NCBI GenBank assembly: GCA_947476525.1
Contig: CANJQY010000002.1
Coordinates: forward strand, 1-59,025
Direction: 5' to 3'
DNA length: 59,025 bases
Source: Oligoflexales bacterium
GTDB lineage: Bacteria > Bdellovibrionota_B > Oligoflexia > Oligoflexales > RGVZ01
Below the pieces are notes generated by a model. That model saw only the letters and a list, made by a program, of their open reading frames with translations, made no database searches and was not told the origin of the DNA. The translations under genes were made by a program, and so were the position numbers. The first letter of the stretch is position 1, and every line of letters starts with the position of its first letter. This document shows positions 20,830-37,616 of this stretch, piece after piece.

Positions 20830-20851
20830 CCTAGCAACGACACTGGAGGTC

Positions 20852-23314: not shown

Positions 23315-23437
23315 CCAGGGCTTCCCACGACTAGGATCTTGCCACATCGACCAGAATCCTGCCAGGGTCGACCTTTATCCAGGATCAAAAATCCTGCGGC
23401 ACTGAGGTTCGCGAGCCGTCAAACGGCGGCAAACTAA

Positions 23438-23902
23438 TCACCAATCTACTCGCCAGACCACCGTATGGCTTGCAGTTACCATGGTGGCGCCAGTTTGTGG
23501 AAATTTCATTTTCCTCAGTAGCTCGTTTGCACACGCGGGCAGTGCTTTGGCGTTACCACCTCTTTCAACTTGCGACACCACACCAGAGGTTAGAATCACG
23601 GCTTCGAGCAGCATGGACCGAGGACTTGGCAACGTGACGTTTAGACATTCAAAGAGCCCGTCGCGGTGGGCTTGAAATTTAAATTCGCGCATAAAAGTCT
23701 GCTCATCAATGCCGTTAGGCTCTTTGAAATGCAACATTTTGCGGTCAATTTTTTTGGCTCGAACTGGCGGTATTACAAGTGTGGGTGGTAGCGTGGCTGA
23801 TGGCGCGGCTAGTGGCCGGCCACCTCCAAAAAATTCTTCTGGGCCGATCGGCGTCGCCCAAAGGAGCAAAAATAGGCCCACTATCAAAATCCAACGATTC
23901 AT
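23438..23902 (-). CDS. small exported hypothetical protein (operon gene 11)
   Basis: Signal peptide MNRWILIVGLFLLLWA. Lies 13 nt downstream of the preceding gene. No family recognised. Confidence 0.55.
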   Translation of the reverse strand: MNRWILIVGLFLLLWATPIGPEEFFGGGRPLAAPSATLPPTLVIPPVRAKKIDRKMLHFKEPNGIDEQTFMREFKFQAHRDGLFECLNVTLPSPRSMLLEAVILTSGVVSQVERGGNAKALPACANELLRKMKFPQTGATMVTASHTVVWRVDW

Positions 23903-23915
23903 CGGCGATGTCCCA

Positions 23916-25712
23916 TCATTCTAAATGCCACACACGGTCTGTTACCGAATTTGGCATTGCCAAGAACTCGCGACGGGCCAAAGTTACTGAATCTGCCCAG
24001 ATGTAAGGGTTCGTGAGTTTTGCAAATGGCCTAATGTTAACGGCACCCACGTGAGTCACGCCGCCACGAGCAGATTTTTCTGCCGTGGACCTTTGATCGT
24101 GGGCTGCACGTTCAAGGCTTGTAAGAAGGCTTACCAATGACTCTTGTGATTTTCCACTGTCGAGGACTTTGCGAATGATTTTCGTGAGCTGCAAAATAAC
24201 ATCCTCAACTTTGTCGTATTCGTCGTCTGACAGACCCTCTGCTCGAACGGCAATGTCATTTGCATAGTTGATAAACTCATTGGGCCGTCGTTCATGTAAT
24301 TTTTCGACTAATTTTGCATACACAAGACTTTTTCGGTGAGCTAACGCCTCGTAGACGGATAGTGTTTCAGGCGGTAGGCGGGCAATTGTCGAAGATTTGC
24401 TTTTAGCTAATAATTGATTTTCAATTGCAAGGAAGCCTTTAATATTCCCACGCAGGGCATGATCGATCAATAAGCCCCGGTAAATTCTCGGCCAATAGGC
24501 CACAGGCACGGCCCCTTGAATGGCACCGAGCATGGCCTCGTTATATTGATATTCACTTAAAAGTCGTTCTACGATGGTCAACGCCCCCTGGCGAGAAACC
24601 TCAGCGGCGTCTTCGGTGGCAAGAATTCTTCGTAGGAACTCGATAGTTTTGGCGTGGTCTCCAGCTTCATAGGACATAACAGCCCTTCGGTAAACGATTT
24701 GGTCGTGAAACGGCAGGTCAGTTAGCTGATCTAACTGCTCAAATAAAATCTCCCGTTCTTTAATTGGCCATTCATCAAAAGCAACAATCCCAAGCCACGA
24801 CGCAGCGTTGACGGCATCGGCCGTAGGTAAAATGACTTTGACGACACCCTCATCGCGGCCGCCGAGTGGTAATACTCCGGCGGGAATTAATTCTTGTTTG
24901 ACCATGGCACTCCATAAGTAACGCCTCTCGGGGTCTTCAAGCTTAGCCCAATCGCCGAGAGAAATATGATTGAACATGGTCAAGATACTGGTTGCAAGGT
25001 CGTCGTATTTTAGTTTTTGAGCCAGTTCCATAATTCTAATTTGGATAGGACGATCGTCCGTCAGACGATCTTCTGGGTGGATGGTAACCCAAGCCATGTA
25101 ACGTCTAAGGTAATCTAACTCGGCCTCGTCAGCAAATTTGCTATCTTTGTAAGTTGGGCGGCTGTAACGGCAGCCCCGATTTAGGAGAAGCTTTGTCTTC
25201 TTGAGATCTGTCAGGTTCGGGGTCTCAAAATCCGCTAACGTGGTTACTTGCACGCCTCGATCAGCGGCATCGTCGGCATCAAGCGGAACGGCAGGCGCTT
25301 GGGCAAAACGTTGATAGAATCTAGCACCGTAGGCTCGTACTAAAAGATCAAAACTGACAGGACCCACCGCTGGGCCAAAGGGACAAGCCCCAAACTTTAG
25401 GGCGGCCAATTTTTCATAGTAGGGTAATTTGTTGACATTGCGTTTTGTATGAATCGCCATCTGCGTCACTCGCCAGGCCGACTGGTATTTTTTTTTGAGC
25501 AAAAACCAACGAATGCTGTCTTCTAATTTGTCGTTCCATTCGGGGTCACTGGGTGTGATTTTATTGTAAAAACTACGAGCCCCATTCACATCACCAGAAT
25601 CATAGGTCTTTCTCGCAAGGTCCAAATTTCGGGCTCCAGCAAACGAACTAAATCCAATTAAGAGGGCCACGACTCCAGGTGAACACCACGAATTTTGCGC
25701 TTTTGACTTCAT
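23916..25712 (-). CDS. exported all-helical (TPR-like) hypothetical protein (operon gene 10)
   Basis: Start set at ATG 25712, giving an ATGA overlap with the upstream stop. Signal peptide MKSKAQNSWCSPGVVALLIGFSSFAGA. Helical repeat-like composition. Confidence 0.6.
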   Translation of the reverse strand: MKSKAQNSWCSPGVVALLIGFSSFAGARNLDLARKTYDSGDVNGARSFYNKITPSDPEWNDKLEDSIRWFLLKKKYQSAWRVTQMAIHTKRNVNKLPYYEKLAALKFGACPFGPAVGPVSFDLLVRAYGARFYQRFAQAPAVPLDADDAADRGVQVTTLADFETPNLTDLKKTKLLLNRGCRYSRPTYKDSKFADEAELDYLRRYMAWVTIHPEDRLTDDRPIQIRIMELAQKLKYDDLATSILTMFNHISLGDWAKLEDPERRYLWSAMVKQELIPAGVLPLGGRDEGVVKVILPTADAVNAASWLGIVAFDEWPIKEREILFEQLDQLTDLPFHDQIVYRRAVMSYEAGDHAKTIEFLRRILATEDAAEVSRQGALTIVERLLSEYQYNEAMLGAIQGAVPVAYWPRIYRGLLIDHALRGNIKGFLAIENQLLAKSKSSTIARLPPETLSVYEALAHRKSLVYAKLVEKLHERRPNEFINYANDIAVRAEGLSDDEYDKVEDVILQLTKIIRKVLDSGKSQESLVSLLTSLERAAHDQRSTAEKSARGGVTHVGAVNIRPFAKLTNPYIWADSVTLARREFLAMPNSVTDRVWHLE

Positions 25713-26497
25713 GGACGCCGTTTGTCTCCAAAAGCTACGACCCCACCAATTGAGGTCCCAGTCCAATGACCGAGAGCTGGCCCCATGTAAGATCTTGGAA
25801 TTTGGTAATTGGTCAAGAAAAAGAGACCAAAGCCCGAAGGTAAATAAATTTGGTAACGAAGCCCTAGATCAATAACCCAAGCCGAAACACCTATCGTTTG
25901 GCCTGCTACCCGAGCGCGATCCCCTTTTTTGGTAGGTATAAACTTGGACGACGGATGAACATAATGAACACCCGCTTCCAAACTAAAAACACTTTCGACG
26001 TCACTAATAATTGGCGATAAACGCGACGATGATTTGCCCTCAAGTAGGCTATAGCCAAACTGACCGTAGACCTCCCACCTTGTAGGTTGGGCTATCTGAC
26101 GGAACGGAGTTTTTTCAATCATCCTGCCGGCCGTATCAGAGTGGACGGATATGCGGCGCAGGCCAGTGCGAAACAGGAAACCTCCGCCAAGGGAAAAACC
26201 AACTCCTGCATGCCATCCATCCGAGGGAATGACGTTTCGTTCATTCACGCCATCTATGCCAAGTTCTAGCTCGTAGTTGCTATTTCTCCAGTCATATATT
26301 TTGGGAGCCTGACTCTCCATAATGACTTGGTCAAGCACACTTCCCTCGTCAAAAAGAACACCGTCTTCGATGATTGGTGGGGTCGGCCTTGAGGGAGTAA
26401 TGATCGGCTCTTTGGCGGCAAACAAAATGGTAGAATTCAGAAATAAAATACCTAGGTGTGCCATTTTTTTTGCTTGAAATATTTTTTCAGTAGCCAT
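25709..26497 (-). CDS. exported hypothetical protein, outer-membrane beta-barrel-like (operon gene 9)
   Basis: Signal peptide present. Alternating hydrophobic/polar strands (GVGFSLGGGFLFRTGL, VYGQFGYSLL, VIDLGLRYQIYL). Start is 26497, or alternatively 26464. Confidence 0.55.
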   Translation of the reverse strand: MATEKIFQAKKMAHLGILFLNSTILFAAKEPIITPSRPTPPIIEDGVLFDEGSVLDQVIMESQAPKIYDWRNSNYELELGIDGVNERNVIPSDGWHAGVGFSLGGGFLFRTGLRRISVHSDTAGRMIEKTPFRQIAQPTRWEVYGQFGYSLLEGKSSSRLSPIISDVESVFSLEAGVHYVHPSSKFIPTKKGDRARVAGQTIGVSAWVIDLGLRYQIYLPSGFGLFFLTNYQIPRSYMGPALGHWTGTSIGGVVAFGDKRRP

Positions 26498-28625
26498 CCA
26501 AAGCCTCACTACCAACTGAAGGATACTGAGGACTCACGCAACTAAAAAAATTATTGTCACTGTAATTGCCGCCCACCTGATAGACTCCGGCGTCATCAAA
26601 CCAGGGGTGATCACAATAGTTAGTGCAGACTTGAAGCAAGGATCCGAAGTCAATTGAGTCAGCCAACCACTTTGGGTCCCCCAAGAGTTGATAACCCGCA
26701 AAATCTCGACCTACAGGTATGAGGCTTACTACGTTGAGGGTCACCGGTGATTTGTACGTCACCTTACCGATGAATGGTAGCTCCCAAGCAACTCCAATTC
26801 GGTAGTCTGCAGCCCCTTGGCCGATACCCCAAAGACTTTCTGCCGTAACAATATTAATTCCATCCGTGGTCGCGTCTTGGGTCGAGCTGCGTAAACGTAA
26901 ACTATTTAGTAGTGAGGAATTGGCTGCTCCCCAACAAACGTGCACACGCTCATTTGCGGTGACAATGAGGTGTTCGTTATCAAAATAAGTGACCTGATGC
27001 TTTTTTTCGGTCTCGGTAAACGTACTTCCATTTTTCACCACGCTTGCAAACGATAAATCCGGCTTTTTGACAAGACCTCGGTCCGTGTATTTATCGACAT
27101 AATTTCGGTAGCTATTAAGAGTCGGGAAAGGGCCCATTGGGGTTACAAAATTTAGCAACGCACCACCAATTTTCACAGGTTCCGTTACAATGCAATTAGC
27201 ATCCACAGGAGAACTTAGACTAGATGATGGGTCTTGGGGCCTGATGCTAGGGCACCAGATCATAAATTTCTCTTGAACACTAGTTGGCCTAAAATCAAAT
27301 TGGCTGTCATAGACAAAACTACCCACGAGCCTCGGAGATATCAACGCCGCCTCTGAGGTTGAAATGACAGCAAGCTCTTCGGCAAGTATTTGATGAAAAT
27401 TACGAAATTCAGTCGACAGATTTTGGTGGAGAACGACCGTAAACATGAAGTCAGTCGCGCCGCTTGAGGCGGCCTTGGCGGTCGCCAATTTGGAGGTGAG
27501 TAATCCCGATAACGAGCTTCGAAACGAGGCGTCACCTCCAACTCTAAAGCATAGATCTTCTGGTGATTCCCCAAATCCGAGCATTTTTCGCTGATACTCA
27601 TAAAAAGTTTCATCCCTGGCCGTATCAGCACCAATAGCATCTGAACAATAGGCTAAAATGACTGGAATTTTCGTCGCAGCCGTCAACGGTGTGTCGTATT
27701 TATAGCTGCCAGTTTTAAATTTCGGATTACGACGGGCGAAGACCGTGTGTTTGGCCAAAACCAAACCATTTCTATCCAAGAAATCCACGTTAGCACAGGC
27801 TCCGTTGGTGCCATCTGTCGTTGGGAAATCTCCGGTCAGCCAAGAGCTTTTTCCATCAAAGGTTTGTGCGTTAGCTGAAGATAGTGACGCCGTACAAAAA
27901 TCAGCCGGAAATAGGTAATTATTTCGGCGAGATGTTTTAAGTGCTGCCATTACAGTGTTAGTAACGCTTGTGCTTTCGGGTGCCCGCACCTGAAATTTTC
28001 TGGTCATACCGTAGCGTCTAATATCTACCTTCGATGGAATGCCAAAATTATCGTCTACACGAATCTGGATGCGAGTGTTGCTTGAATCGTAAACTCCAAA
28101 AACCATGGCACTGAGATTGGTACCAAAATCGCGAATCGTAGCCGAAGTGACATGTTCGGCAGTGCCATCGGGGTGATACAGCATACGCAAAGCAACGCGC
28201 TGAACATTTTTATCAGAGGGCCAGGAAAAACTTCCACAATGCACACCTCTACTGCACTCAACCATCTTATGCTGATGAACTCCGGTCGACAAATCAAGGA
28301 ACTTCCAAGTTGCTTGTGCCGAGTTAAACGTCCCACTGCCATCATCAAAAGCGTAGAACCACTTGCTATTTTCTAAAACCTCGGGAATTTCTGTCAATTC
28401 AAAAAAAAGGTAGTCCACATTTTCGTCAGCAACGCGGTAGGCTCCGATTATGTCAAGGTGGGACGGAACTTGCACCAAGCCCGCCTTGCGGCACGATTGC
28501 ACCATTGCACTACCAAAACCAACGACAGCCACGATGGCGGCTGCTTGGGCTGCCCAACGACTAATGGATGGAATTAGTGCCACTAGCCCGGCTGTCGGAG
28601 GCTTTTGAATGCGCAACCAGTTCAT
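26487..28625 (-). CDS. large Cys-rich exported hypothetical protein (operon gene 8)
   Basis: 712-aa ORF with an N-terminal hydrophobic anchor or signal. Many Cys residues. The start shares one base with the upstream stop (TAATG). No family recognised. Confidence 0.6.
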   Translation of the reverse strand: MNWLRIQKPPTAGLVALIPSISRWAAQAAAIVAVVGFGSAMVQSCRKAGLVQVPSHLDIIGAYRVADENVDYLFFELTEIPEVLENSKWFYAFDDGSGTFNSAQATWKFLDLSTGVHQHKMVECSRGVHCGSFSWPSDKNVQRVALRMLYHPDGTAEHVTSATIRDFGTNLSAMVFGVYDSSNTRIQIRVDDNFGIPSKVDIRRYGMTRKFQVRAPESTSVTNTVMAALKTSRRNNYLFPADFCTASLSSANAQTFDGKSSWLTGDFPTTDGTNGACANVDFLDRNGLVLAKHTVFARRNPKFKTGSYKYDTPLTAATKIPVILAYCSDAIGADTARDETFYEYQRKMLGFGESPEDLCFRVGGDASFRSSLSGLLTSKLATAKAASSGATDFMFTVVLHQNLSTEFRNFHQILAEELAVISTSEAALISPRLVGSFVYDSQFDFRPTSVQEKFMIWCPSIRPQDPSSSLSSPVDANCIVTEPVKIGGALLNFVTPMGPFPTLNSYRNYVDKYTDRGLVKKPDLSFASVVKNGSTFTETEKKHQVTYFDNEHLIVTANERVHVCWGAANSSLLNSLRLRSSTQDATTDGINIVTAESLWGIGQGAADYRIGVAWELPFIGKVTYKSPVTLNVVSLIPVGRDFAGYQLLGDPKWLADSIDFGSLLQVCTNYCDHPWFDDAGVYQVGGNYSDNNFFSCVSPQYPSVGSEALDGY

Positions 28626-29380
28626 TATGGACGCACCTCTTGGGCAGTTTGAACAGCCCAGTTCGCCAATGTTAAGGCGTCTGATGATGCTGTCGCCGTT
28701 CTGGCTCTAGTTCCTGCATCTGTGGGGTCAACTGTATTTATGGCCGTAGCAGTTTTGACAATTTTTGAGTCCGTGGAAGCTTTCCAATGGGCAAAATGGC
28801 CCGTGGTTGGATTGCTTACACTAAAATAATGAAGACTAACAGCCGGTCTTCCACGTCCGCGAAGAGTTCGCCACGCAGCCCAATGGGGAGTTTCCACGAC
28901 GAGTGTAAACGTGCCGCCGACATCGGTGTCCCAAAATACTGCTTTGAGATGGACGATGGGTCGGTCTAATGGGTCATCCGGATATGATCTCACGGAGCCG
29001 GGATCAGAAGCCGCGGCGGCCGTTTCTACGGCAGTCAACGTCGTGCAGTCAGAAGTAGTGATGGCCCGAGGAACCACAGTTACGTTGTCCGCAACCATTT
29101 TAAGGGCCTCCGTCGCCGCAGCGATTCTGGTCGACCATTCAGTGATTCTAAACTGACTTGTGCCTGTCGCACCGAAACAGGACGAATCAGCGGCCGCAGA
29201 GTTAGATAAATTTATTGGCTCAAATACGACAATGTATAACGGTTTGGTCGCCTCGGGATCGGTTGGAATATTAGGCGTCGCTGCCGACGATCCATCACGG
29301 TCATCCCAACCGTCATAGCAAGACACGTTGATTTGTGTGATTAGAGACAACAAAAATATTTTAAGTAATGAAGAAGTCAA
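28625..29380 (-). CDS. exported hypothetical protein, possible lipoprotein (operon gene 7)
   Basis: N-terminus MTSSLLKIFLLSLITQINVSC, an atypical lipobox. T/A/S-rich. Confidence 0.55.
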   Translation of the reverse strand: MTSSLLKIFLLSLITQINVSCYDGWDDRDGSSAATPNIPTDPEATKPLYIVVFEPINLSNSAAADSSCFGATGTSQFRITEWSTRIAAATEALKMVADNVTVVPRAITTSDCTTLTAVETAAAASDPGSVRSYPDDPLDRPIVHLKAVFWDTDVGGTFTLVVETPHWAAWRTLRGRGRPAVSLHYFSVSNPTTGHFAHWKASTDSKIVKTATAINTVDPTDAGTRARTATASSDALTLANWAVQTAQEVRP

Positions 29381-29426
29381 AAGTATGCCTCGATGAAATT
29401 CTCTGGAATATTCTCTGTAATATTCT

Positions 29427-31082
29427 CTAGGAAAATAAATTGTGGTTTATTTTTGCTAGATCAATGACGCCCTGCCTATCTTTATCTTTAACAAATTGGG
29501 AAATGGCCTGCCGAGCCTCTTTTACCTGATTGCGGTCTAGAAGCGCAGCCCCCATAAAAGGCTTAATCACCTCTTGAAGTCTGGGCTTCAGGCGTCTGAG
29601 AACATCCACTTGGCCATCTAACGAGTCGAGGTAGGCGGCGGCAGCTTTTGGGGTCACAAGTAAAAAAGCTTCAGTCAAAAGATCTTCAGGAAGTTTCGCG
29701 AGGGATGCATCTAAGAACATTTTTGCTCCGACACCATTCAGCGCGTGGGGCTGATCTCTTCCGATTTCTCCCAGAAGTGCGGCTCTTTGTTTGCCGTCAA
29801 GTGAATTCAAAGCATCCTCAAGTAAGGGTAGTTTATTGACGGCCACAATTTTCATGGCACCGCCCTTTTCGCTGTAAATACGCCTGGCCTTATGCACGGC
29901 TTGACGCACAAACTGATCCGACAACCTCTCTTGACCGGTTAGATACTTGACAAATTTCGCGACGAAAGCAGGCCCAGCACTTGCAAATAATTCTTGGCGA
30001 AGGCTCTGAGGTCCATTGACAATCAGGGCTAGTCCTTCGAGCTCTGTTAACTCTTCCATTAAGCCGATTAGTTCGTCAACTTCCATGCGGTCCATAAATG
30101 CGAATTCGTAGCTCAGAGGATCGGTGGTGACTCCCACTTTCGCGGCCGTGATTCGACGTTCAGACCTCTCCAAAAATTCCCAGAATTTCTCGGGGGAATC
30201 CGTGCCGGCGTAATCTTGGTATTTGACCGAAAGTGCTTCTAACGTACTTTCAAATTGCCCGCGTTGTTTGTAGGTGGCAAACAATTCGGGTCCGAAATAT
30301 TTTAAAATTCTGCACAGCTCGTCCAAATTACTTTGCTCTAGAAGCGACCTGATGGCGAATTCCGACAGCGCCGTATCCTCTTGATAGATACGCCTGACAT
30401 AAGCGGTTCGCTCCAAAAGTTGCTCTGCAGAAATTTTGGGGCCTTCCTGGGATGCCCCCTCTTCGGAGGCGAACGTTGCTAGGCCATTTTTAATTTTATG
30501 CCGGTAGCGAACAAAAATTCCAATGACGGCAAATGTTCCCAACAAACAAATGATGGTGATCCACGGCAGAAAAGGTGCGAATTCTTGTACGAGTAAATCA
30601 CCTCGGCTGAGCGGCAAAGGTTTTGGGGCTATTGGTACTGGAACTTGGGGTGCCGTTAAATCGGCCTTGGGCAGTAATTTTCTCGAAATAAGCGTCAAAT
30701 TAACGCCCCCCTGTTTGACGCGCTGGAGAAGTCGTTGGCGAAGTGCAGCTAATTTAGCTTCGTCAAAGGTGGGTTCGTAAGCAAACTCGCACTTGACGCC
30801 CGCCAATTTATATTGAACCGTTTTTGCACTTGGCTCAGAAGATCCCATGCCAGGCAGTGACGAGTCTTGGGTTTCATCTAGGGTGACAAATCTTGAGGCC
30901 TCGCAGCCGACTGAATTGCAGATGTTTATTGGACACTCCTCTTCTAACACCTGAGAAAATCTTTCAGATATGATCAACGCCTCAGACGCCACCACGGAGG
31001 GTGTCTGAATTCCTTGGCCAAAACATGGCTGAAGGGCGGTCGCCACTATAACCAAGGCACTGATATTAAAAAATATTCTCAT
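29427..31082 (-). CDS. bitopic membrane protein with an exported N-domain and a FliG/MgtE-N-like cytoplasmic domain (operon gene 6)
   Basis: Signal peptide, a Cys-containing ~140-aa N-domain, and one TM (about residues 168-192, PFLPWITIICLLGTFAVIGIFV). The ~350-aa helical C-terminal part contains LDGKQRAALLGEIG and ends ...MGAALLDRNQVKEARQAISQFVKDKDRQGVIDL, resembling the FliG C-terminal pattern. Confidence 0.6.
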   Translation of the reverse strand: MRIFFNISALVIVATALQPCFGQGIQTPSVVASEALIISERFSQVLEEECPINICNSVGCEASRFVTLDETQDSSLPGMGSSEPSAKTVQYKLAGVKCEFAYEPTFDEAKLAALRQRLLQRVKQGGVNLTLISRKLLPKADLTAPQVPVPIAPKPLPLSRGDLLVQEFAPFLPWITIICLLGTFAVIGIFVRYRHKIKNGLATFASEEGASQEGPKISAEQLLERTAYVRRIYQEDTALSEFAIRSLLEQSNLDELCRILKYFGPELFATYKQRGQFESTLEALSVKYQDYAGTDSPEKFWEFLERSERRITAAKVGVTTDPLSYEFAFMDRMEVDELIGLMEELTELEGLALIVNGPQSLRQELFASAGPAFVAKFVKYLTGQERLSDQFVRQAVHKARRIYSEKGGAMKIVAVNKLPLLEDALNSLDGKQRAALLGEIGRDQPHALNGVGAKMFLDASLAKLPEDLLTEAFLLVTPKAAAAYLDSLDGQVDVLRRLKPRLQEVIKPFMGAALLDRNQVKEARQAISQFVKDKDRQGVIDLAKINHNLFS

Positions 31083-31098
31083 TTAAAAATTCTCCCTT

Positions 31099-31758
31099 TC
31101 AAGGCTGATCTACTTTGGATTCAAGTTTTTTAATTTGCTCGCCGACCTGAGTATTTGGCTCAATTTCTTGTGCCTTGCGGTAAGTTTCCAGTGCTCCGTC
31201 ACGTTCTCCAATTTTTAAAAGTAACGAACCCTTAGTACGCAGGGTCTCCACGTGATTGGGATATCGTCCCAAAATTTGCTCTGCGTACTGCAAGGCAATT
31301 GAGTAGTCACCAGATTTTAGAAATTTTCTGATCATCTCTTGTGTCTTCAAAATACTGACGGGAGACGCCTTAGCGTTCATAGAGTACCCGGATTTTAAAT
31401 AGGATTCTTCAAGAGTTTTGTCTGCTGGTGTCGGTGCGTAGGGAACCAAAGCAAGTCCAACTGGTGACTGCGACGACTTCTGATCGATTAAAATCTGCTG
31501 CCCACTCATCAAGATTGGAATGAAGACTTCGGTCTGCGCCGACCCGTCTGAGTAGACGACTCGCACTACGTCGCGAGAATAGATCTGAGGCGCATCCTTT
31601 TTTCCAAGCTCTCTCGGAGGCAACGGCTTGGTCACCGAGTCACTGATGACATAAGTCCAAAATTCGCGGCCAGATATACAACTTGAAAGTGCCACACTAA
31701 AGAAAAGATAACTCCACAATATTCGCGGTGGCAGACTATACACAATTTTACGATTCAA
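31099..31758 (-). CDS. TPR-repeat lipoprotein (operon gene 5)
   Basis: Lipobox VALSSC. C-terminal TPR-like YSIALQYAEQILGRYPNHVETLRTKGSLLLKIGERDGALETYRKAQEIEPN. Confidence 0.65.
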   Translation of the reverse strand: MNRKIVYSLPPRILWSYLFFSVALSSCISGREFWTYVISDSVTKPLPPRELGKKDAPQIYSRDVVRVVYSDGSAQTEVFIPILMSGQQILIDQKSSQSPVGLALVPYAPTPADKTLEESYLKSGYSMNAKASPVSILKTQEMIRKFLKSGDYSIALQYAEQILGRYPNHVETLRTKGSLLLKIGERDGALETYRKAQEIEPNTQVGEQIKKLESKVDQP

Positions 31759-31766
31759 CTCTCACC

Positions 31767-32732
31767 TCACAGCATAAAAGGGAAAAAAACAGGATTATAA
31801 AAACTTATGCCCAAGCTCGCTCCACCCTTGGAGCCAGCGTTAATAAACACACCGAATGTCGAAGAAACCGCCGCTTGAACGCCAACGGAAAAAGATAAGC
31901 TATCTTGGACGGGATCGGGGCTTAAGGCCGCCTGTAGCGGAAAAAAGAGCTGACCGGACGCCGTAATCCTGCGATTAAATGGCAGCATGTAGCGGTACGT
32001 CAGTCCAATAGCTAAAGTCGGATTGACTAGACTCAAGGTCACGCCTGTAATGTGTTGGTTTAAGCTTCCCCACTGTTCTAAAAATGACATGTGAAAGAGT
32101 CCCGCTGGATAAAAACCCATGTCTATAAAAATATAAGCCAGACTTTCCCCTCGTTCTCTCCGGTCTAGTTCTTTAATTAGGCCAAGAGGCGGCTTTGCCT
32201 GATTTAACGTGATGCGGCCATCAGCCAAGTAGTGAAATAAAATGGCTCCGTCACTAATGCGCAATATTTTGAGTTCCACGCCAGACGCAGTCTCGGTTGT
32301 AAACACCACTGATTTGACACCTTGATAACGGGGATCTGAGGTTAACGCTAACAGGTCGGCGGTGGAAAGGTCTCCGCTATCAATGGAAATGGTGTGTTGT
32401 TTTGCGACGTGAAGGCGCTGCATATTGCAGTCATGGCATTGGATTAGATCCCCTGAGGCGGTCCAATATTTTTTAAAGATGGCCCATACTGCAGGTGCAA
32501 AATCGCTTTGGGATTCTGTCCACAGATGCCTTGGTGTCGCTACGAGCATGGGCGACACACTCGCAGAAAAGGACTCATCATTTGTGATTTTGTTTTGAAT
32601 GGCGTCATCTAAAAGTACCAAATCACTATTTGTTTGTTCCAGCATCGCAAAGGCAACAGACGGCTGGACGCACCACAGACTAACGACAACGAGAATTTTG
32701 GTGGAAATGTTTTTTGACTGAAATTTTACCAT
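31767..32732 (-). CDS. exported hypothetical protein, beta-barrel-like C-terminal half (operon gene 4)
   Basis: Start set at ATG 32732 (ATGGTAA overlap with the upstream stop). Signal peptide present. Strand-like segments in the C-terminal half. Confidence 0.55.
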   Translation of the reverse strand: MVKFQSKNISTKILVVVSLWCVQPSVAFAMLEQTNSDLVLLDDAIQNKITNDESFSASVSPMLVATPRHLWTESQSDFAPAVWAIFKKYWTASGDLIQCHDCNMQRLHVAKQHTISIDSGDLSTADLLALTSDPRYQGVKSVVFTTETASGVELKILRISDGAILFHYLADGRITLNQAKPPLGLIKELDRRERGESLAYIFIDMGFYPAGLFHMSFLEQWGSLNQHITGVTLSLVNPTLAIGLTYRYMLPFNRRITASGQLFFPLQAALSPDPVQDSLSFSVGVQAAVSSTFGVFINAGSKGGASLGISFYNPVFFPFML

Positions 32733-33949
32733 TTCACCACCATCCCAAGTCCCCACGCTTGAAACGACGTGCCCAGTATATCGTAGCTGCCGAGAACCTC
32801 GCTGTTGCTTAGTGCCGGCACTTTTTCTAAAAATGAAAACAGACCAAACCTGTGTTTGGCGTGTAGTTCCAGTCCCACTCGGTATGCGATATAGGTCGCC
32901 CTAGGCTCGCGCCTATCCCCACGTATGCTCGCAATGTCTAGTTCCTCCAGCCCGAAAGGCAAGGCACCAGGACCTCGAAGTCTGGTGTAATGAAAGCCTG
33001 CCAAAAAATAGAGGTCTGGATTTGCGAGACTCGGTTCTTGCTTGTTAAGAAGTTTTGCCAAGTGCCCACCGACCGAGTAGCCACTCATTACTTTTTCGAC
33101 GCTGGTTGCCCCCACGGTAAATGCGACTCGGGTACTTCGCCTCGGCAAGACGACGCCTTCGACACTTTGTTCTACAAAGAGCAGTGGAGTCACGTTAGAT
33201 GCGCCGGTGTTTCCAGCATTTTCCATTTTGAAATTCGTAAACGAAATCCGTGTGATAAATTGCAGGAGGTCTTCTTTGCGAAGCATCGTATTTTGGATAT
33301 CGCGTGCCTCTTGCAACGTCACCAAATGTTGATCGTTTTGCAATGCCAGTCGAGAAGACATGGACGTGGCGTATGACTTGGCCCAGACAATCGGTTGGCC
33401 AGGTTCGGCGAATGAAAACAATTGGGCACGCAATATGAGAGATTTGCCTTCGGCCTCAAACGACAAGCTCAGTCCCGTTTTGGCACCGCCAGACGATGCT
33501 AGCTCCTTGAGGAGCTCTGGCTGGTCGATGCCGCGGCCGATATAGGTGCCGGCCTTAGTCGATTTAACCACCATTTTCATGCAGGCACTGCACCTGGCAA
33601 GGCTTACCTTTGTCGAACTAATTTTCAGCAATAGATCAATCAAGTGATTCTCAATGACAAGAGAAAATTGCTCGTCTAGTCCGATGGGCGAATTAATTTC
33701 CGCCAGTGAAACCAATTGCAGACTAGAAAATGGGGGATGCAGTTCCCAGTCGTGCACGAGTTCATCTACTAAATCTGTGCCCATCCACCGAATATCTAAG
33801 GTAGCGCCTTGCTCCTCTGCAAAAGAGGAGCCTACCGTGAACAGCGTTATTGCCATCGTCAGTCCAAGGCGGCCAAGAACCTTGACGCCCTGCGTCACAA
33901 AATAGTTCGCAGAATAGTTCACAAATTTATTGTTTCCGAAGTGAATCAC
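32726..33949 (-). CDS. exported hypothetical protein, outer-membrane beta-barrel-like (operon gene 3)
   Basis: GTG start overlapping the upstream TGA (GTGA). Signal peptide ...LFTVGSSFA. Ends ...GLGMVVKW, an aromatic C-terminus as in many OM barrels. Confidence 0.55.
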   Translation of the reverse strand: MIHFGNNKFVNYSANYFVTQGVKVLGRLGLTMAITLFTVGSSFAEEQGATLDIRWMGTDLVDELVHDWELHPPFSSLQLVSLAEINSPIGLDEQFSLVIENHLIDLLLKISSTKVSLARCSACMKMVVKSTKAGTYIGRGIDQPELLKELASSGGAKTGLSLSFEAEGKSLILRAQLFSFAEPGQPIVWAKSYATSMSSRLALQNDQHLVTLQEARDIQNTMLRKEDLLQFITRISFTNFKMENAGNTGASNVTPLLFVEQSVEGVVLPRRSTRVAFTVGATSVEKVMSGYSVGGHLAKLLNKQEPSLANPDLYFLAGFHYTRLRGPGALPFGLEELDIASIRGDRREPRATYIAYRVGLELHAKHRFGLFSFLEKVPALSNSEVLGSYDILGTSFQAWGLGMVVKW

Positions 33950-34542
33950 AAGTCAAGCCACTCCTGACTATCATTTGCTTTATTTGCGAGACTCGACAGT
34001 GAGACTCCAATAAATTGTTTTGCATCGTCAACGCGGCGCACGACAACCTTCAAATTGGAATGGGGCTTGGAACTTTGAATTCGCAACACTCTAACTTTGG
34101 GAGCATACTGCACCAACGCAGTTTCAAAAACGGCTCGCACGTGTTTGCGCACCGCAAGGACATCCGTCAAGACTTCAATATTTAAACTGAGTGCCTCGCT
34201 TGCAGAATTTATTTTTTGTCTTTGATCATTGATTTGAGAAATTTTAAGTGCCACTTCCGTGGCGCGCAGTCCGGCATTTTCAGCCACGAATGTATAAAAG
34301 GAATTTCGGTCCCCGTACTCGAAAATTGTGGAGTCACACACATAAAAACCCCGGAGATTAAAAGTCGACGCTTTGCCGCGGCTTCCCAAATTTGTCGCCG
34401 CAAGTTCTTCGGCGTTTGCGGGTCGACAATTTGCGGGGACGTCGTCTTGGAGTCCCTGTTCATACCTTGATTCGGGGCTGAGGAAGGTCCCGTCTGATCC
34501 AAGACTGAGCAACGCCAAAATAGTTGCGTATATTTCAATCAA
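33946..34542 (-). CDS. hypothetical protein (operon gene 2)
   Basis: 198-aa ORF with a TTG start overlapping the upstream TGA (TTGA). Weak N-terminal hydrophobic segment. Confidence 0.45.
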   Translation of the reverse strand: MIEIYATILALLSLGSDGTFLSPESRYEQGLQDDVPANCRPANAEELAATNLGSRGKASTFNLRGFYVCDSTIFEYGDRNSFYTFVAENAGLRATEVALKISQINDQRQKINSASEALSLNIEVLTDVLAVRKHVRAVFETALVQYAPKVRVLRIQSSKPHSNLKVVVRRVDDAKQFIGVSLSSLANKANDSQEWLDL

Positions 34543-35207
34543 AACACACCCCCTTGAAGGGCTGAGGCGGTGTAGACTTTATTTTCAATAAATTTTGCGA
34601 AATTTTCTGACTGCTGACGACGATACGCTGAGCGAGAAACTGGCTTCCCAATTTCTGAGAGCATCAAGAATAGAGCTCCAATACCGAAATATTTTCTCTG
34701 GTGCACCATTAGTGGCCACGATCGGCTTTGATTTCCCCTTACTGCGGTTACAGTGAGTTTTGCCGATGAATCTACTTCTGCCAAACAAGGAAATAGGAAC
34801 CCGCTGGCAATCATGGGGACCAGCGACCAGCCACACATTCCAAAACCGGATTTGATTTCTTGGTAGGTCACGAGAATTTCCGGGGCGGTTATTTTTTTTG
34901 TAGCAGACTGGATTGGTGATTCTGTGTCCGAGTCTTCCTTTTCAGGCATATCCTCGACTACGGCCCCCATGTTCGCGACAATTTTTTTAATGAAAACACA
35001 GCCCTCTCCTTCCGAGATATTGCCGCCATCAGCATCACTGCAAATCACTTTTATGGGAATACCGTCTAGGCTAGTTGCGTGAATAGCTAAATCAACGGGC
35101 TCTACCCATTGGCCATGGGGGTAAACATAGCTAATGCATGACGCCAACAATGGTGTGACGGCAACCATTAAAAAAAGGAAAAAAAGTGAAAAAATCTTGC
35201 TGCGCAT
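34539..35207 (-). CDS. lipoprotein, hypothetical (operon gene 1)
   Basis: MRSKIFSLFFLFLMVAVTPLLASC is a signal peptide plus canonical lipobox. Confidence 0.6.
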   Translation of the reverse strand: MRSKIFSLFFLFLMVAVTPLLASCISYVYPHGQWVEPVDLAIHATSLDGIPIKVICSDADGGNISEGEGCVFIKKIVANMGAVVEDMPEKEDSDTESPIQSATKKITAPEILVTYQEIKSGFGMCGWSLVPMIASGFLFPCLAEVDSSAKLTVTAVRGNQSRSWPLMVHQRKYFGIGALFLMLSEIGKPVSRSAYRRQQSENFAKFIENKVYTASALQGGVF

Positions 35208-35422
35208 GAATACTTTCCGACCATGGGCCGCGAATTACCTGCCGGAAAACGCAGCATTTCTAAAAATTACCAATGTTGCTTCGAAATGAGTGACGAATTA
35301 AACTAGCAGCGCACACGAAAAAGATCTATCCTAATTTTTCCATGAAAAATAACTTATCTAAGCAAAATAAATTATCTAACAGGCATGGCTACAGCCATTA
35401 CGAAAACGGAAGAGAGTAAAAA

Positions 35423-36145
35423 ATGTTTACACCGATCATTGGGGTTATAACGCTCTGCGCAGTGTTTTTCGTGGCCGTAGCCGAAAGGTCCAACGCTCAA
35501 CTCGACTTCATCGATTATCACGCAGCGTTTGTCGTGTTGGGTGGAGTTGCCGGTGCTCTTTGTTTATCCATGGAACGCAGCTCGTTGTTGATGCTCTTAC
35601 AATCCGTTCGAGATCTTTTGCCCGGCTTTGGCAAAAGGAAATACGACTCCCAGCACGTTCGTCAGGAAATCGCCGAGCTTCGCGATGCTTGGCGAGGGGG
35701 CCAGCGCGCAAAGGTCTTAGATCTTGCCGATCACAGTAAATCTGCAGAAATTCGGATCGCTGCCGACGCATTGTTTAAACGCAAAAAGGGGGCTGCACTA
35801 TCCGAGGCCTTTGCTGAACTACGAACCGTCTACATAACCAAATACCAACCAGTGGTCGAGGGTTGGGATTTGGTGGGACGTTTAGCGCCATCTTTTGGGA
35901 TGGTAGGAACGGTCACTGGGATGATCCAGCTTTTCAAAAACATGGCCGAAAATTCTGGCAACATCGGTGGAGCCATGGGAATGGCCCTACTTGCGACCTT
36001 GTACGGCATTACTTTTGGCGCCTCAGTGGGTTCACCAATGGCGACTCGAGTGATGAACCGCATGAACGAGTATCTTGCATCCATGGATTTACTAGAGCAA
36101 ACAGTGGCGGCCCTTTCCGAAGCTGACGAGCAACAAAAATCTTAG
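35423..36145 (+). CDS. motA: MotA/PomA-family proton-channel (stator) protein
   Basis: 4-TM layout with a cytoplasmic loop. APSFGMVGTVTGMIQLF...IGGAMGMALLATLYGITFG aligns with the PomA/MotA TM3-TM4 block. RBS GGAAGAGAG. Confidence 0.8.
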   Translation: MFTPIIGVITLCAVFFVAVAERSNAQLDFIDYHAAFVVLGGVAGALCLSMERSSLLMLLQSVRDLLPGFGKRKYDSQHVRQEIAELRDAWRGGQRAKVLDLADHSKSAEIRIAADALFKRKKGAALSEAFAELRTVYITKYQPVVEGWDLVGRLAPSFGMVGTVTGMIQLFKNMAENSGNIGGAMGMALLATLYGITFGASVGSPMATRVMNRMNEYLASMDLLEQTVAALSEADEQQKS

Positions 36146-36166
36146 CTTGCCAAAGGAATTTAGCTT

Positions 36167-36808
36167 ATGAAGCATTGGCGTCCAAGTAGATCTCGCGCAA
36201 ACAACGAAGGTTGGCTTACCTCGTACGCCGATTTGATTACAAATTTGCTAATATTTTTCGTCCTTATTATTTCCGCGTCTCAGATGCAAAATGGCAAAAT
36301 GGAACGCATTATTGAATCCATGAATAACAAAAAGTCATCCCCAAGCATGACTCTGGCGAAAGCTAAAAAAGAACTTGAAAAGGTCCTCAAAGAGCAAAAT
36401 CTAGAAAAACAGGTGTCCGTTGACTTGACTGACAACGGCCTAGAGCTGGCCTTTCAGTCCGGCGTTATGTTTGCGTCGGGTAGCGCTCAAATTTTTGAGG
36501 CCATGGACGCTCCACTAGCGATCGTGCTCGACGCGATGGCGAGGTACCGAGAAAAGTACCATTTTGCCGTTGAAGGCCACACCGATGAAACACCTATTCG
36601 TTCAGACGCTTACCGAAGCAATTGGGAGTTGTCGAGTGCCAGGGCACTTGTTGTAAGAGACCGCCTTGAGTCGTCCGGCGCACCGAAGACAAAGATTCGT
36701 GTAGAGGCCTACGCCGACACGCATCCGTTAAAGCCAGAGAAGCTGCAAAACTTGACGCGCGATGAGGTGCTTTCACTGCACCGCCGTGTTGTCATTAGAC
36801 TCTATTAA
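36167..36808 (+). CDS. motB: MotB-family stator protein with an OmpA-like peptidoglycan-binding domain
   Basis: EGWLTSYADLITNLLIFFVLI (conserved Asp plus TM) and C-terminal GHTDETP...NWELSSARALVVRDRL. Confidence 0.8.
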   Translation: MKHWRPSRSRANNEGWLTSYADLITNLLIFFVLIISASQMQNGKMERIIESMNNKKSSPSMTLAKAKKELEKVLKEQNLEKQVSVDLTDNGLELAFQSGVMFASGSAQIFEAMDAPLAIVLDAMARYREKYHFAVEGHTDETPIRSDAYRSNWELSSARALVVRDRLESSGAPKTKIRVEAYADTHPLKPEKLQNLTRDEVLSLHRRVVIRLY

Positions 36809-36813
36809 AGCCC

Positions 36814-37560: not shown

Positions 37561-37616
37561 AGCTCGCTAGATCTGGGTATGTTATTGTAAGTAAGGAATG
37601 CAACATATGTGATTCA

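What the first reader, a model, noticed from the sequence alone, without database searches (positions are those of the whole stretch)
29427..31082. Membrane-tethered FliG-like protein encoded outside any flagellar context
Seen: a signal peptide, a ~140-aa Cys-containing exported domain and one TM helix (about residues 168-192). These are followed by a ~350-aa helical cytoplasmic part. Its segment LNSLDGKQRAALLGEIG resembles the FliG/MgtE-N LxGxQKAAILLxxLG helix. Its last ~90 aa (LPEDLLTEAFLLVTPKAAAAYLDSLDG...RLKPRLQEVIKPFMGAALLDRNQVKEARQAISQFVKDKDRQGVIDL) parallel the FliG C-terminal domain ending (...MGPVRLKDVEEAQQKIVNIIRRLEEAGEI, from memory). Established: FliG-C is the rotor surface contacted by the MotA cytoplasmic loop. 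Inference: a FliG-C module anchored in the membrane and linked to a periplasmic domain could transmit stator-driven movement directly across the inner membrane. I do not know of a described example of this arrangement.
Basis: partly seen in the sequence, partly recalled or inferred. Interest (0 to 1): 0.75.

Follow-up and report, generated by a model that had tools for sequence, protein, structure and literature searches.

The report
Membrane-anchored FliG-like rotor protein with MotAB
This gene encodes a single-pass membrane protein whose cytoplasmic part is a true relative of the flagellar rotor protein FliG. It is always encoded next to a flagellar-type MotA/MotB ion motor and a set of exported proteins of unknown function, with no other flagellar gene nearby, which points to an undescribed non-flagellar machine driven by a flagellar-style stator–rotor pair.

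Summary
ORF 29427-31082(-) encodes a 551-aa protein with five parts:
- a cleavable signal peptide;
- a ~115-aa exported α-β-β-α-β domain with four invariant Cys;
- a Pro-rich linker;
- one TM helix, followed by a strongly basic stretch (cytoplasmic side);
- a ~335-aa all-helical cytoplasmic region.

Three lines tie the cytoplasmic region to FliG middle and C-terminal domains:
- a 62-sequence family profile against E. coli FliG (hhalign 93%, E=3e-7);
- a family profile against PDB FliG chains (E=7e-5);
- the AlphaFold model against solved structures, where full-length FliG is the top hit (E=1e-4, 345 columns).

More distant relatives pass Pfam's own FliG_M and FliG_C thresholds. The exported domain has the topology of the ring-building motifs of FliF/SctJ, but the fold search cannot separate it from OsmC or CDF C-terminal domains.

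The gene lies in a conserved 11-gene operon. All ten other products carry signal peptides or lipoboxes and match no known family. A plug-and-OmpA-type MotAB pair is transcribed divergently from the operon. In eight further, more divergent lineages sampled, motB (seven of them with motA as well) sits immediately upstream of the homologue.

Best reading: this is the force-receiving (rotor-like) subunit that couples a peptidoglycan-anchored stator to periplasmic and outer-membrane partners. Ring formation and rotation are inferred, not shown. The closest precedent is the Chlamydia FliF-FliG fusion. I found no published description.

The parts
29427..31082 (-). Target gene: 551-aa single-pass membrane protein made of a signal peptide, an exported α-β-β-α-β domain, one TM helix and a FliG-like cytoplasmic region.
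   Evidence: ORF. 15 homologues. AF2 model with mean pLDDT 75.
31011..31082 (-). Signal peptide, residues 1-24.
   Evidence: Hydrophobic segment at residues 3-22. Conserved A/G-Q-G | I/V-Q-T-P junction.
30672..31010 (-). Exported domain, residues 25-137. Its elements are α1 (29-49), β1 (55-68), a disordered loop carrying the invariant SSLPG motif, β2 (90-102), α2 (108-122) and β3 (128-135). It has four invariant Cys. It is the best-conserved part of the protein across the whole superfamily.
   Evidence: Fold search gives FliF S-ring/RBM3, PrgK, MxiJ and EscJ, but also OsmC/Ohr and MamM C-terminal domains, all at E between 2e-3 and 3e-2.
30501..30587 (-). Transmembrane helix, residues 166-194, followed by a basic stretch (R194, nearly invariant, begins an RRLG motif in more distant relatives).
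30123..30431 (-). Membrane-proximal cytoplasmic helices, residues 218-320. Residues 228-249 resemble the FliG-binding C-terminal helix of FliF (not significant). The remainder is collinear with FliG_N in the fold alignment.
   Evidence: hhalign against E. coli FliF residues 528-549, E=0.16. Foldseek alignment of 345 columns to full-length FliG 3hjl. Homologous to the same region of the long paralogue family.
29853..30122 (-). FliG middle-domain-like region, residues 321-410. The EHPQ FliM-binding motif is not conserved (LTEL at residues 345-348).
   Evidence: hhalign of alignment A7 against E. coli FliG: window 330-542 aligns to FliG 110-323, probability 93%, E=3.3e-7. Relatives pass the Pfam FliG_M threshold.
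29430..29852 (-). FliG C-terminal-domain-like region, residues 411-551: ARM_C, an MFLD hinge (FliG has MFxF) and the C-terminal helix bundle.
   Evidence: Profile against PDB FliG 3ajc, E=7.4e-5. 9 of 15 family members hit Pfam FliG_C..
29553..29594 (-). Torque-helix equivalent, residues 497-510 (RLKPRLQEVIKPFM). R501 aligns to E. coli FliG R281 and is R or K in all 15 sequences. D288/D289 align to P508/F509, so the acidic pair is lost.
35423..36145 (+). MotA/PomA-type stator A subunit, 240 aa, transcribed divergently from the operon. Equivalents of E. coli P173 and P222 are conserved. The cytoplasmic loop has an invariant R95 and an invariant acidic residue at position 103, eight residues apart.
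   Evidence: Pfam MotA_ExbB 4e-16. NCBIfam PomA match over the full length, 5.5e-18, against TolQ at 0.023. Alignments.
36167..36808 (+). MotB-type stator B subunit, 213 aa, with the channel Asp (D22 in YADLITN), a plug and an OmpA-like peptidoglycan-binding domain.
   Evidence: Pfam MotB_plug 1.9e-14 and OmpA 6.8e-14. NCBIfam MotD/MotB/MotS matches from 1e-33 to 1e-24.
36814..37560 (+). PEGA-domain lipoprotein downstream of motB. It is kept in only 3 of 6 related loci, so membership in the system is uncertain.
31099..31758 (-). TPR lipoprotein, 219 aa, immediately upstream of the target. It is the most conserved accessory protein (53-66% identity). In other lineages it directly precedes motA.
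31767..35207 (-). Four upstream operon genes of 222, 198, 407 and 329 aa. All have a signal peptide or lipobox. The 407-aa product ends in an invariant Trp, which resembles an outer-membrane β-barrel signature.
   Evidence: No Pfam, NCBIfam, PADLOC or PDB matches.
23438..29380 (-). Five downstream operon genes: a 251-aa lipoprotein, a 712-aa Cys-rich exported protein, a 268-aa protein, a 616-aa helical (TPR-like) protein and a 154-aa protein. All are exported.

Best explanation
The 551-aa protein is the force-receiving, rotor-like subunit of a non-flagellar envelope machine that is powered by the adjacent flagellar-type MotA/MotB stator.

Shown by the tests here:
- The protein is a type-I membrane protein whose cytoplasmic region is homologous to FliG middle and C-terminal domains.
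- Its exported domain is disulfide-type Cys-rich and is the most conserved part across the superfamily.
- Its gene is linked across deep divergence to motA-motB, a TPR lipoprotein and a set of exported proteins.
- It is the only product of the 11-gene operon that has a cytoplasmic domain.

Inferred:
- MotB anchors the stator to peptidoglycan through its OmpA-like domain.
- Ion flow turns the MotA pentamer, whose cytoplasmic loop (invariant R95 and D/E103) pushes on the torque-helix equivalent (R501) of the FliG-like domain.
- Because the FliG-like domain is covalently joined through one TM helix to the exported domain, the movement is delivered directly into the periplasm. There it reaches the TPR lipoprotein and the other lipoproteins and outer-membrane-type proteins of the operon.

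Most likely, but least certain: many copies assemble into a ring, through FliG-type ARM_M/ARM_C stacking in the cytoplasm and an RBM-like ring in the periplasm, and that ring rotates. It would amount to a one-polypeptide MS-ring plus upper C-ring, without FliM/FliN, an export gate, a rod or a filament. The output function (surface motility, adhesin or polymer movement, or secretion) is unknown.
For: FliG homology:
- A1 profile against PDB FliG chains 3ajc, 1lkv and 4fhr, E from 7e-5 to 9e-4.
- 9 of 15 family members hit Pfam FliG_C and 8 of 15 hit MgtE_N.
- The top 13 Foldseek hits of the model are all FliG, including full-length 3hjl (E=9.6e-5, 345 columns) and FliG in situ in the Salmonella C-ring.
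- The 62-sequence alignment against E. coli FliG gives hhalign probability 93%, E=3.3e-7, covering FliG residues 110-323.
- The family aligns to a longer paralogue family at probability 99.2%, E=7e-20. That family passes the Pfam thresholds for FliG_M and FliG_C and aligns to E. coli FliG at 93.7%.

Topology.

Stator type:
- MotB has a plug, an OmpA-like domain and the channel Asp.
- MotA matches PomA over its full length and keeps the P173 and P222 equivalents.

Linkage:
- The 11-gene operon plus divergent motAB is conserved in six independent loci at 35-56% identity of the target.
- motA-motB lies directly upstream of the homologue in L016/L017, L018, the ERR4592245 contig, L020, L021 and L022; in most of them the motB stop abuts or overlaps the homologue's start. 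On the short contig L015 only motB is visible upstream. These loci span 41-72% GC.

Other support:
- The other ten operon products have only N-terminal signal peptides or lipoboxes.
- The R281 equivalent is conserved, and MotA carries an invariant R...(8)...D/E pair.
- Engineered FliF-FliG fusions assemble rings (PMC11481574, PMC6079021).
Against: - There is no experimental or structural evidence for oligomerisation, rotation or a MotA contact.
- The window protein itself has no Pfam FliG hit at E≤1. Homology rests on profiles, fold comparison and transitivity.
- The acidic pair D288/D289 and the EHPQ motif of FliG are not conserved.
- The exported domain cannot be told apart from OsmC/Ohr or CDF C-terminal folds, and it shows no sequence similarity to FliF.
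- The FliG_N equivalence rests only on the length of a fold alignment.
- A longer paralogue family with the same design has no motAB nearby, so FliG-like membrane proteins need not always work with an adjacent stator.
- Whether these genomes also encode a flagellum could not be checked.
Confidence: 0.65

Rival explanations
1. Static docking or activation platform. The FliG-like domain only recruits and unplugs the MotAB unit at a fixed envelope complex. It neither rotates nor moves. The useful output of ion flow then goes through MotB or the periplasmic partners, as in Tol-Pal or ExbBD-TonB energisation of outer-membrane processes.
For: - The canonical D288/D289 pair and the EHPQ motif are missing.
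- The cytoplasmic part diverges much faster between lineages than the exported domain.
- A TPR lipoprotein and an OmpA-type protein in one cluster recall Tol-Pal (YbgF and Pal).
Against: - The stator is of the flagellar type (plug, OmpA domain, PomA-like loop), not TolQR/ExbBD-like: the TolQ match has E=0.023 against PomA at 5e-18.
- No TonB- or TolA-like partner is encoded.
- In every known case, FliG_C is the surface on which MotA does mechanical work (established knowledge; PMC12505986).
- The R281 equivalent and a MotA R/acidic pair are conserved.
Confidence: 0.17
2. Degenerate flagellar or type III remnant. Like the Chlamydia FliF-FliG fusion, the protein would be a leftover basal-body piece that now works with a type III secretion or flagellar export apparatus encoded elsewhere. 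On this view its neighbourhood with motAB is a relic.
For: - A natural FliF-FliG fusion exists in non-flagellated Chlamydiaceae (PMC4768692).
- The fold search returns FliF, PrgK, MxiJ and EscJ for the exported domain.
Against: - The whole 11-gene operon plus motAB is conserved, under purifying selection, across lineages from 41 to 72% GC.
- No flagellar or type III family is detected in the window or in any related locus.
- All the partners are Sec/Lol-type exported proteins.
Confidence: 0.06
3. Sensor or regulator. The exported Cys-rich domain would be a redox (OsmC/Ohr-like) or metal-binding (CDF C-terminal-domain-like) sensor. The FliG/MgtE_N-like cytoplasmic domain would then act as a brake or clutch that regulates a stator belonging to another machine.
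For: - OsmC/Ohr gives the best TM-score for the isolated domain (TMq 0.52), and MamM/YiiP C-terminal domains also match.
- The domain has four invariant Cys.
- 8 of 15 members hit MgtE_N, a Mg2+-sensing domain family.
Against: - All fold-search E-values for the domain are weak (at or above 2e-3), and the α-β-β-α-β topology is generic.
- The Cys pattern (CX4CX4C in this clade, CX3C in others) at the helix-strand junction looks structural, and the number of Cys varies between lineages.
- No MgtE chain appears among the 50 matches listed by the fold search.
- The conserved ten-protein exported partner set is not explained by this reading.
Confidence: 0.07

Closest known systems
FliG (flagellar rotor/switch protein), together with FliF in the MS-ring/C-ring
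   Same: - The middle and C-terminal domains are homologous.
- The MFxF-type hinge (MFLD) and the R281 equivalent are present.
- The partner is a plug-and-OmpA-type MotAB stator.
- The overall order (exported α-β-β-α-β domain, TM helix, FliG) mimics FliF followed by FliG. Engineered FliF-FliG fusions form rings and are functional (PMC11481574, PMC6079021).
   Different: - It is a single polypeptide with a cleavable signal peptide and one TM helix.
- It has one small exported domain instead of RBM1-3 plus the β-collar.
- There is no sequence similarity to FliF.
- EHPQ and D288/D289 are lost.
- No FliM/FliN, export gate, rod, hook or filament genes are present. The partners are ten Sec-exported proteins of unknown family.
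Chlamydiaceae natural FliF-FliG fusion (Bergeron 2016, PMC4768692 / bioRxiv 10.1101/023564)
   Same: It is a naturally fused, membrane-anchored protein with RBM-type periplasmic domain(s), a TM helix and a FliG-like cytoplasmic domain, in an organism or locus without a flagellum.
   Different: - The Chlamydia protein is ~330 aa and has two TM helices.
- Its RBM2 is detectably PrgK-like.
- It carries only a FliG middle-domain-like tail.
- It is proposed to work with T3SS components, and the paper describes no MotAB with it.
- The protein here carries the torque-generating C-terminal domain and is genetically tied to MotAB.
Other 5:2 ion-driven motors that energise the envelope: GldLM/PorLM (T9SS and gliding), AglRQS-Glt (Myxococcus gliding), ExbBD-TonB, TolQR-TolA, ZorAB
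   Same: The works-like analogy holds. In each, an inner-membrane MotA/ExbB-family motor is encoded with lipoproteins, TPR proteins and outer-membrane proteins, and passes energy across the periplasm (PMC8986121, PMC9389320, PMC9120999).
   Different: - Those systems transmit through the B subunit or a TonB/TolA/GltG-type partner inside the membrane. None uses a FliG-like cytoplasmic rotor.
- Their B subunits typically lack the plug and the OmpA-type domain (PMC12505986).
- There are no PADLOC Zorya hits for MotA or the target.
- No Glt, Gld, Tol or Exb families are detected.
Long 'FliG C-terminal domain-containing protein' paralogues of Oligoflexia/Bdellovibrionota (for example in Pseudobacteriovorax antillogorgiicola)
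   Same: The design is the same (signal peptide, CxxxC α-β-β-α-β modules, TM helix, FliG-like region), and the cytoplasmic regions are clearly homologous (hhalign 99.2%).
   Different: - They have two exported modules and are 720-870 aa long.
- They pass the Pfam FliG_M and FliG_C thresholds.
- They are encoded beside dsbA-like and cNMP-binding genes, upstream of pilMNOPQ, with no motAB or operon partners nearby.

Membership tests
FliG | Homology to the FliG middle domain (ARM_M) | tested here: met
   A7 profile against E. coli FliG covers FliG 110-323 (probability 93%, E=3.3e-7). Relatives at E~1e-11 to 1e-15 pass the Pfam FliG_M threshold. Foldseek hits are FliG chains.
FliG | Homology to the FliG C-terminal domain (ARM_C plus the helix bundle with the torque helix) | tested here: met
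   Profile against PDB FliG chains, E=7.4e-5. 9 of 15 members hit Pfam FliG_C, best 1.3e-5.. The window protein alone gives no Pfam hit.
FliG | FliG N-terminal domain that binds the FliF C-terminus | tested here: inconclusive
   Only the 345-column Foldseek alignment to full-length FliG and a non-significant FliF C-terminus-like helix (E=0.16) point this way. No sequence profile match to FliG residues 1-100 was found.
FliG | EHPQ motif of the middle domain (FliM-binding site) | tested here: not met
   It aligns to LTEL at residues 345-348 and is not conserved in the family. This fits the absence of FliM/FliN genes.
FliG | Conserved torque-helix charges (E. coli R281, D288, D289) | tested here: inconclusive
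   R281 aligns to R501, which is R or K in all 15 sequences. D288/D289 align to P508/F509, so the acidic pair is absent.
FliG | Soluble cytoplasmic protein encoded in a flagellar operon (fliF-fliG-fliH...) | tested here: not met
   It is a membrane-integrated type-I protein. No flagellar genes other than motAB occur in the window or in related loci.
FliF / SctJ ring-building (RBM) inner-membrane ring proteins | Periplasmic α-β-β-α-β ring-building-motif fold | tested here: inconclusive
   The topology matches. Foldseek returns the FliF S-ring, PrgK, MxiJ and EscJ, but OsmC/Ohr and MamM C-terminal domains score equally or better (E from 2e-3 to 3e-2).
FliF / SctJ ring-building (RBM) inner-membrane ring proteins | Sequence homology to the YscJ_FliF families | tested here: not met
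   No Pfam or NCBIfam hit. hhalign against E. coli FliF is not significant.
FliF / SctJ ring-building (RBM) inner-membrane ring proteins | Assembly into a multi-subunit ring | not testable with these tools
Flagellar-type stator MotAB/PomAB (for the partner genes) | A subunit with four TM helices, conserved P173/P222 and an extended cytoplasmic loop; B subunit with the channel Asp, a plug and an OmpA-like domain | tested here: met
   Pfam MotA_ExbB, MotB_plug and OmpA. PomA match over the full length. P173 and P222 are conserved. The YAD motif is read directly from the sequence.
Flagellar-type stator MotAB/PomAB (for the partner genes) | NCBIfam equivalog score cut-offs | tested here: not met
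   PomA scores 65 bits against a cut-off of 341. MotD scores 117 bits against 283. These are divergent members, not orthologues of named stators.
Zorya (ZorAB) defence | ZorA-type A subunit with a long tail, plus ZorC/D/E-type partners | tested here: not met
   PADLOC gives no ZorA hit for MotA and no hits for the target or the partners. Only generic MotB-to-ZorB similarity is seen.

The most novel reading that the evidence does not exclude
A previously unrecognised rotary nanomachine. A homo-oligomeric ring of a single FliF/FliG-like polypeptide would be spun by flagellar-type MotAB stators and would drive a Sec-assembled periplasmic and outer-membrane apparatus, with no type III export gate, rod or filament.

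It would be either an independent offshoot of the flagellar rotor-stator pair or a surviving relative of its pre-flagellar ancestor. It is widespread in uncultured Oligoflexales and other lineages, with 223 protein clusters at 50% identity.
Probability: 0.35. Interest if true: 0.92.

Novelty: new variant of a known kind. Interest (0 to 1): 0.8.

Why it matters
The MotAB-FliG interface is regarded as a flagellum-specific invention. A recent survey treats the plug, the OmpA-type domain and the extended MotA torque interface as traits specialised for flagellar rotation (PMC12505986).

Here a stator with those traits is tied, across deep divergence, to a membrane-integrated FliG homologue and about ten exported proteins of unknown family, with no other flagellar component. 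If the pair works as in the flagellum, three things follow:
- The rotor-stator module has a second, non-flagellar use.
- It gives a minimal one-polypeptide rotor in which to study torque generation and transmembrane torque delivery.
- It offers a concrete test case for a long-standing question: what the stator-rotor pair could have done before, or apart from, the type III-based flagellum.

It also assigns a first functional hypothesis to a conserved 13-gene envelope cluster in a poorly known bacterial order.

Tried and rejected
- Pfam and NCBIfam on the window protein alone: no FliG hit. Family profiles were needed.
- hhalign of the 15-sequence alignment against single E. coli FliG and FliF: not significant, E=0.12 and 0.16. 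The 62-sequence alignment reached significance for FliG but not for FliF.
- A domain-only AF2 model of the exported domain was made to settle the RBM question. The result was ambiguous between FliF/SctJ, OsmC/Ohr and CDF C-terminal domains.
- Profile searches of the four largest accessory proteins against PDB sequences: nothing below E=0.01; best was E=0.019 for the 616-aa protein against a TPR-type chain.
- Homologue search for the 712-aa protein: only the same clade, with no annotation.
- PADLOC: the system is not Zorya.
- Sigma-70 promoter and terminator scan of 23000-38000: counts equal chance.
- Sigma-54 -24/-12 search: no site in the divergent intergenic region 35208-35422, and the window total is at chance level.
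- Charge covariation between the MotA loop and the torque helix: too few lineages, and no simple compensatory pattern by eye.
- Literature: no description of a MotAB-linked membrane FliG was found. Only full-text open-access papers and bioRxiv were searched.
- Whether these genomes also carry canonical flagellar genes could not be checked, because only ±10 kb around each hit is available.
Full report
**1. The observation**

The ORF listing finds the ORF at 29427..31082 on the minus strand, with an ATG start and 551 aa. A homologue search returns 15 proteins at 35-100% identity, all about 550-580 aa. They align end to end with 58% mean column identity.

A hydropathy scan shows an N-terminal hydrophobic segment at residues 3-22 and a single internal one at 163-194. 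The N-terminal segment is followed by a conserved A/G-Q-G | I/V-Q-T-P junction, which is typical of signal peptidase I. The internal segment is followed by VRYRHKIK, so the positive-inside rule puts the C-terminal 350 residues in the cytoplasm.

The AlphaFold2 model has mean pLDDT 75. Its elements are helix 29-49, strands 55-68 and 90-102, helix 108-122, strand 128-135, a long TM helix 160-205 and an all-helical region 219-550. Four Cys (C50, C55, C60, C98) are invariant in the exported domain.

**2. The cytoplasmic region is a FliG homologue**

The window protein alone gives no Pfam or NCBIfam match. Scanned member by member, however, 9 of 15 relatives hit FliG_C (best 1.3e-5) and 8 of 15 hit MgtE_N.

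A family profile finds T. maritima FliG chains in the PDB (3ajc E=7.4e-5; 1lkv and 4fhr ~1e-3). That alignment covers query residues 392-542 and ends in the shared ...G.I.L/I terminus.

Foldseek of the full model returns FliG for its first 13 hits. These include full-length A. aeolicus FliG (3hjl, E=9.6e-5, 345 aligned columns) and FliG inside Salmonella C-ring cryo-EM structures.

An exhaustive HMM search of 1.8 billion representatives finds 223 clusters at E≤1e-3. Among them is a 720-870-aa paralogue family that passes Pfam's own thresholds for FliG_M and FliG_C (for example P0105 at 46 and 52 bits).

Local hhalign comparisons link these sets:
- Cytoplasmic part of the short family against that of the long family: probability 99.2%, E=6.6e-20 over 325 columns.
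- Long family against E. coli FliG: 93.7%, E=1.8e-7.
- A 62-sequence alignment of the short superfamily directly against E. coli FliG: 93.1%, E=3.3e-7, with window 330-542 aligned to FliG 110-323.

Homology to the middle and C-terminal domains is therefore established.

The first ~100 cytoplasmic residues are collinear with FliG_N only in the fold alignment. Residues 228-249 (VRRIYQEDTALSEFAIRSLLEQ) align without gaps to the FliG-binding C-terminal helix of E. coli FliF (IREMSDNDPRVVALVIRQWINN). At E=0.16 this is a lead, not a result.

Two hallmark FliG features are not kept:
- EHPQ, the FliM-binding site, aligns to LTEL.
- The acidic pair D288/D289 aligns to P508/F509.

R281 aligns to R501, which is R or K in all 15 sequences.

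**3. The exported domain**

Its α-β-β-α-β order is that of the ring-building motifs of FliF, SctJ and SctD.

In the full-model search, PrgK (E=0.014) and several FliF S-ring/RBM3-collar chains (0.015-0.05) follow directly after the FliG hits.

A separate model of residues 24-142 (pLDDT 76) did not settle the question. OsmC/Ohr (TMq up to 0.52), the FliF S-ring, PrgK, MxiJ, EscJ and MamM/YiiP C-terminal domains all fall between E=2e-3 and 3e-2. No sequence similarity to FliF is detectable.

I therefore call the domain RBM-like in topology only.

It is nevertheless the hallmark of the superfamily. In a 62-sequence alignment that goes down to 14% identity, the only invariant residues are C50, C60, P77 and G78. 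All but two of the nearly invariant ones (R194 and L461) lie in this domain. The invariant SSLPG motif sits at the tip of the long β1-β2 hairpin. That tip is predicted to be disordered in the monomer.

**4. Genomic context**

The gene is sixth in a tightly packed minus-strand operon, 35207 to 23438. The products, in order, are 222, 198, 407, 329, 219 (TPR), 551, 251, 712, 268, 616 and 154 aa.

A divergent unit on the plus strand encodes three proteins:
- MotA (35423-36145). It matches Pfam MotA_ExbB and NCBIfam PomA over its full length at 5.5e-18, against TolQ at 0.023.
- MotB (36167-36808). It has MotB_plug (1.9e-14), OmpA (6.8e-14) and the YAD channel Asp.
- A PEGA lipoprotein.

MotA keeps the equivalents of E. 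coli P173 and P222. Across nine lineages it has an invariant W90, an invariant R95 and an acidic residue at 103 in its cytoplasmic loop. R95 and the acidic residue are eight residues apart, like E. coli R90 and E98. Those two contact FliG D288/D289 and R281 respectively (as cited in PMC12505986). The equivalence is inferred from position and spacing, because hhalign aligns only TM3-TM4 with confidence.

All ten other operon products start with a signal peptide or lipobox, and none has an internal hydrophobic segment. None matches Pfam (other than the TPR repeats of the 219-aa lipoprotein), NCBIfam, PADLOC or PDB sequences.

The rest of the window encodes housekeeping genes and no flagellar or type III families.

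**5. Conservation of the linkage**

In six independent loci from Oligoflexales-type MAGs, the same eleven genes in the same order, plus the divergent motB-motA, are present. The target is 35-56% identical in these loci.

In eight more distant lineages sampled (GC 41-72% where measured), motB sits immediately upstream of the homologue, and in seven of them motA precedes motB; in most cases the motB stop abuts or overlaps the homologue's start. Most are also preceded by the TPR gene. These are L016/L017, L018, a contig from ERR4592245, L020, L021, L022 and (with only motB visible) L015.

Most of these keep the 407-, 329-, 712- and 268-aa partners. Two lineages (L021, L022) keep only TPR-MotA-MotB-target and have other accessory genes.

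Linkage that survives rearrangement and this much divergence is strong evidence that the stator and the FliG-like protein work together.

**6. Mechanism**

Shown: a flagellar-type stator with a peptidoglycan anchor; a FliG M+C homologue tethered by one TM helix to a conserved exported domain; and obligatory co-occurrence with exported partners.

Inferred: MotB fixes the stator to the wall, so the MotA pentamer, turned by ion flow, must displace whatever its cytoplasmic loop engages. The only candidate with a cytoplasmic domain is this protein. Its movement would pass through the TM helix to the exported domain and on to the TPR lipoprotein and the other partners.

FliG M/C domains polymerise by ARM stacking and RBM-type domains form rings. 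The most economical picture is therefore a homo-oligomeric ring that rotates, a one-polypeptide equivalent of the MS-ring plus the upper C-ring. Engineered FliF-FliG fusions do form such rings (PMC11481574, PMC6079021).

My confidence is as follows:
- FliG homology: ~0.95.
- Functional coupling to MotAB: ~0.85.
- A rotating ring: ~0.45.

The rivals are a static docking platform, a flagellar or T3SS remnant as in Chlamydia, and a redox or metal sensor-regulator. They are set out with their tests in the rivals section.

**7. Comparison and novelty**

The closest described object is the Chlamydiaceae FliF-FliG fusion (PMC4768692). It has two RBM-type domains and only a FliG_M-like tail, is not described with any MotAB, and is thought to serve type III secretion.

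Other envelope-energising 5:2 motors (GldLM, AglRQS-Glt, ExbBD-TonB, TolQR-TolA, ZorAB) do not use a FliG-like partner. Their B subunits typically lack the plug and the OmpA-type domain (PMC12505986).

Six full-text literature searches found no description of a MotAB-linked membrane FliG. Database names for relatives are 'hypothetical protein', 'FliG C-terminal domain-containing protein' or an automatic 'flagellar motor switch protein FliG'.

I rate it a new variant of a known kind: the flagellar stator-rotor pair in a non-flagellar machine. There is a substantial chance that the machine as a whole is categorically new.

Noticed in passing
L013:6198-8546 and L014:10001-12418 (Pseudobacteriovorax antillogorgiicola and a Bdellovibrionota MAG): This is a longer paralogue family (720-870 aa) with two CxxxC α-β-β-α-β modules, a TM helix and FliG_M/FliG_C domains that pass the Pfam thresholds. 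It always lies between a DsbA-like gene and a cNMP-binding gene, a few kb upstream of pilMNOPQ, with no motAB nearby. A FliG-like membrane protein next to type IV pilus genes is unexplained.
   Followed up: partly
window 43276-45618 (+): A 780-aa protein combines an adenylate/guanylate cyclase catalytic domain with a C-terminal PilZ domain.
   Followed up: no
window 2830-4464 (-): One 544-aa ORF fuses a biotin-protein ligase domain (BPL_LplA_LipB) to a type III pantothenate kinase.
   Followed up: no
window 19306-23314 (+): A sigma-54-dependent response regulator and a hybrid histidine kinase/receiver protein abut the 3' end of the operon. They are not conserved next to the cluster in other loci, and no sigma-54 -24/-12 site lies in the divergent promoter region 35208-35422.
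   Followed up: partly
window 26487-28625 (-): The 712-aa operon protein has 13 invariant cysteines across eight orthologues and has no relatives outside this cluster family. It is probably a disulfide-rich periplasmic or surface component.
   Followed up: partly
L002 (CAZUYQ010000049.1): The closest genome-collection relative (56% identity, full cluster) is labelled 'uncultured Polynucleobacter sp.'. Six of the other eight are labelled Oligoflexales or Pseudomonadota MAGs, so this contig was probably mis-binned.
   Followed up: no
L021:6385-9836 and L022:7397-10872: In two high-GC lineages only the TPR-MotA-MotB-target core is kept. The MotB is longer (284-289 aa) and the accessory genes differ (L021 includes OMP_b-brl proteins). 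This suggests a modular core with exchangeable outer parts.
   Followed up: partly
window 13617-14918 (+) and 46538-47830 (+): Two ORFs of ~430 aa carry trypsin-like serine protease domains. This is consistent with a predatory or proteolytic lifestyle of Bdellovibrionota-type organisms.
   Followed up: no
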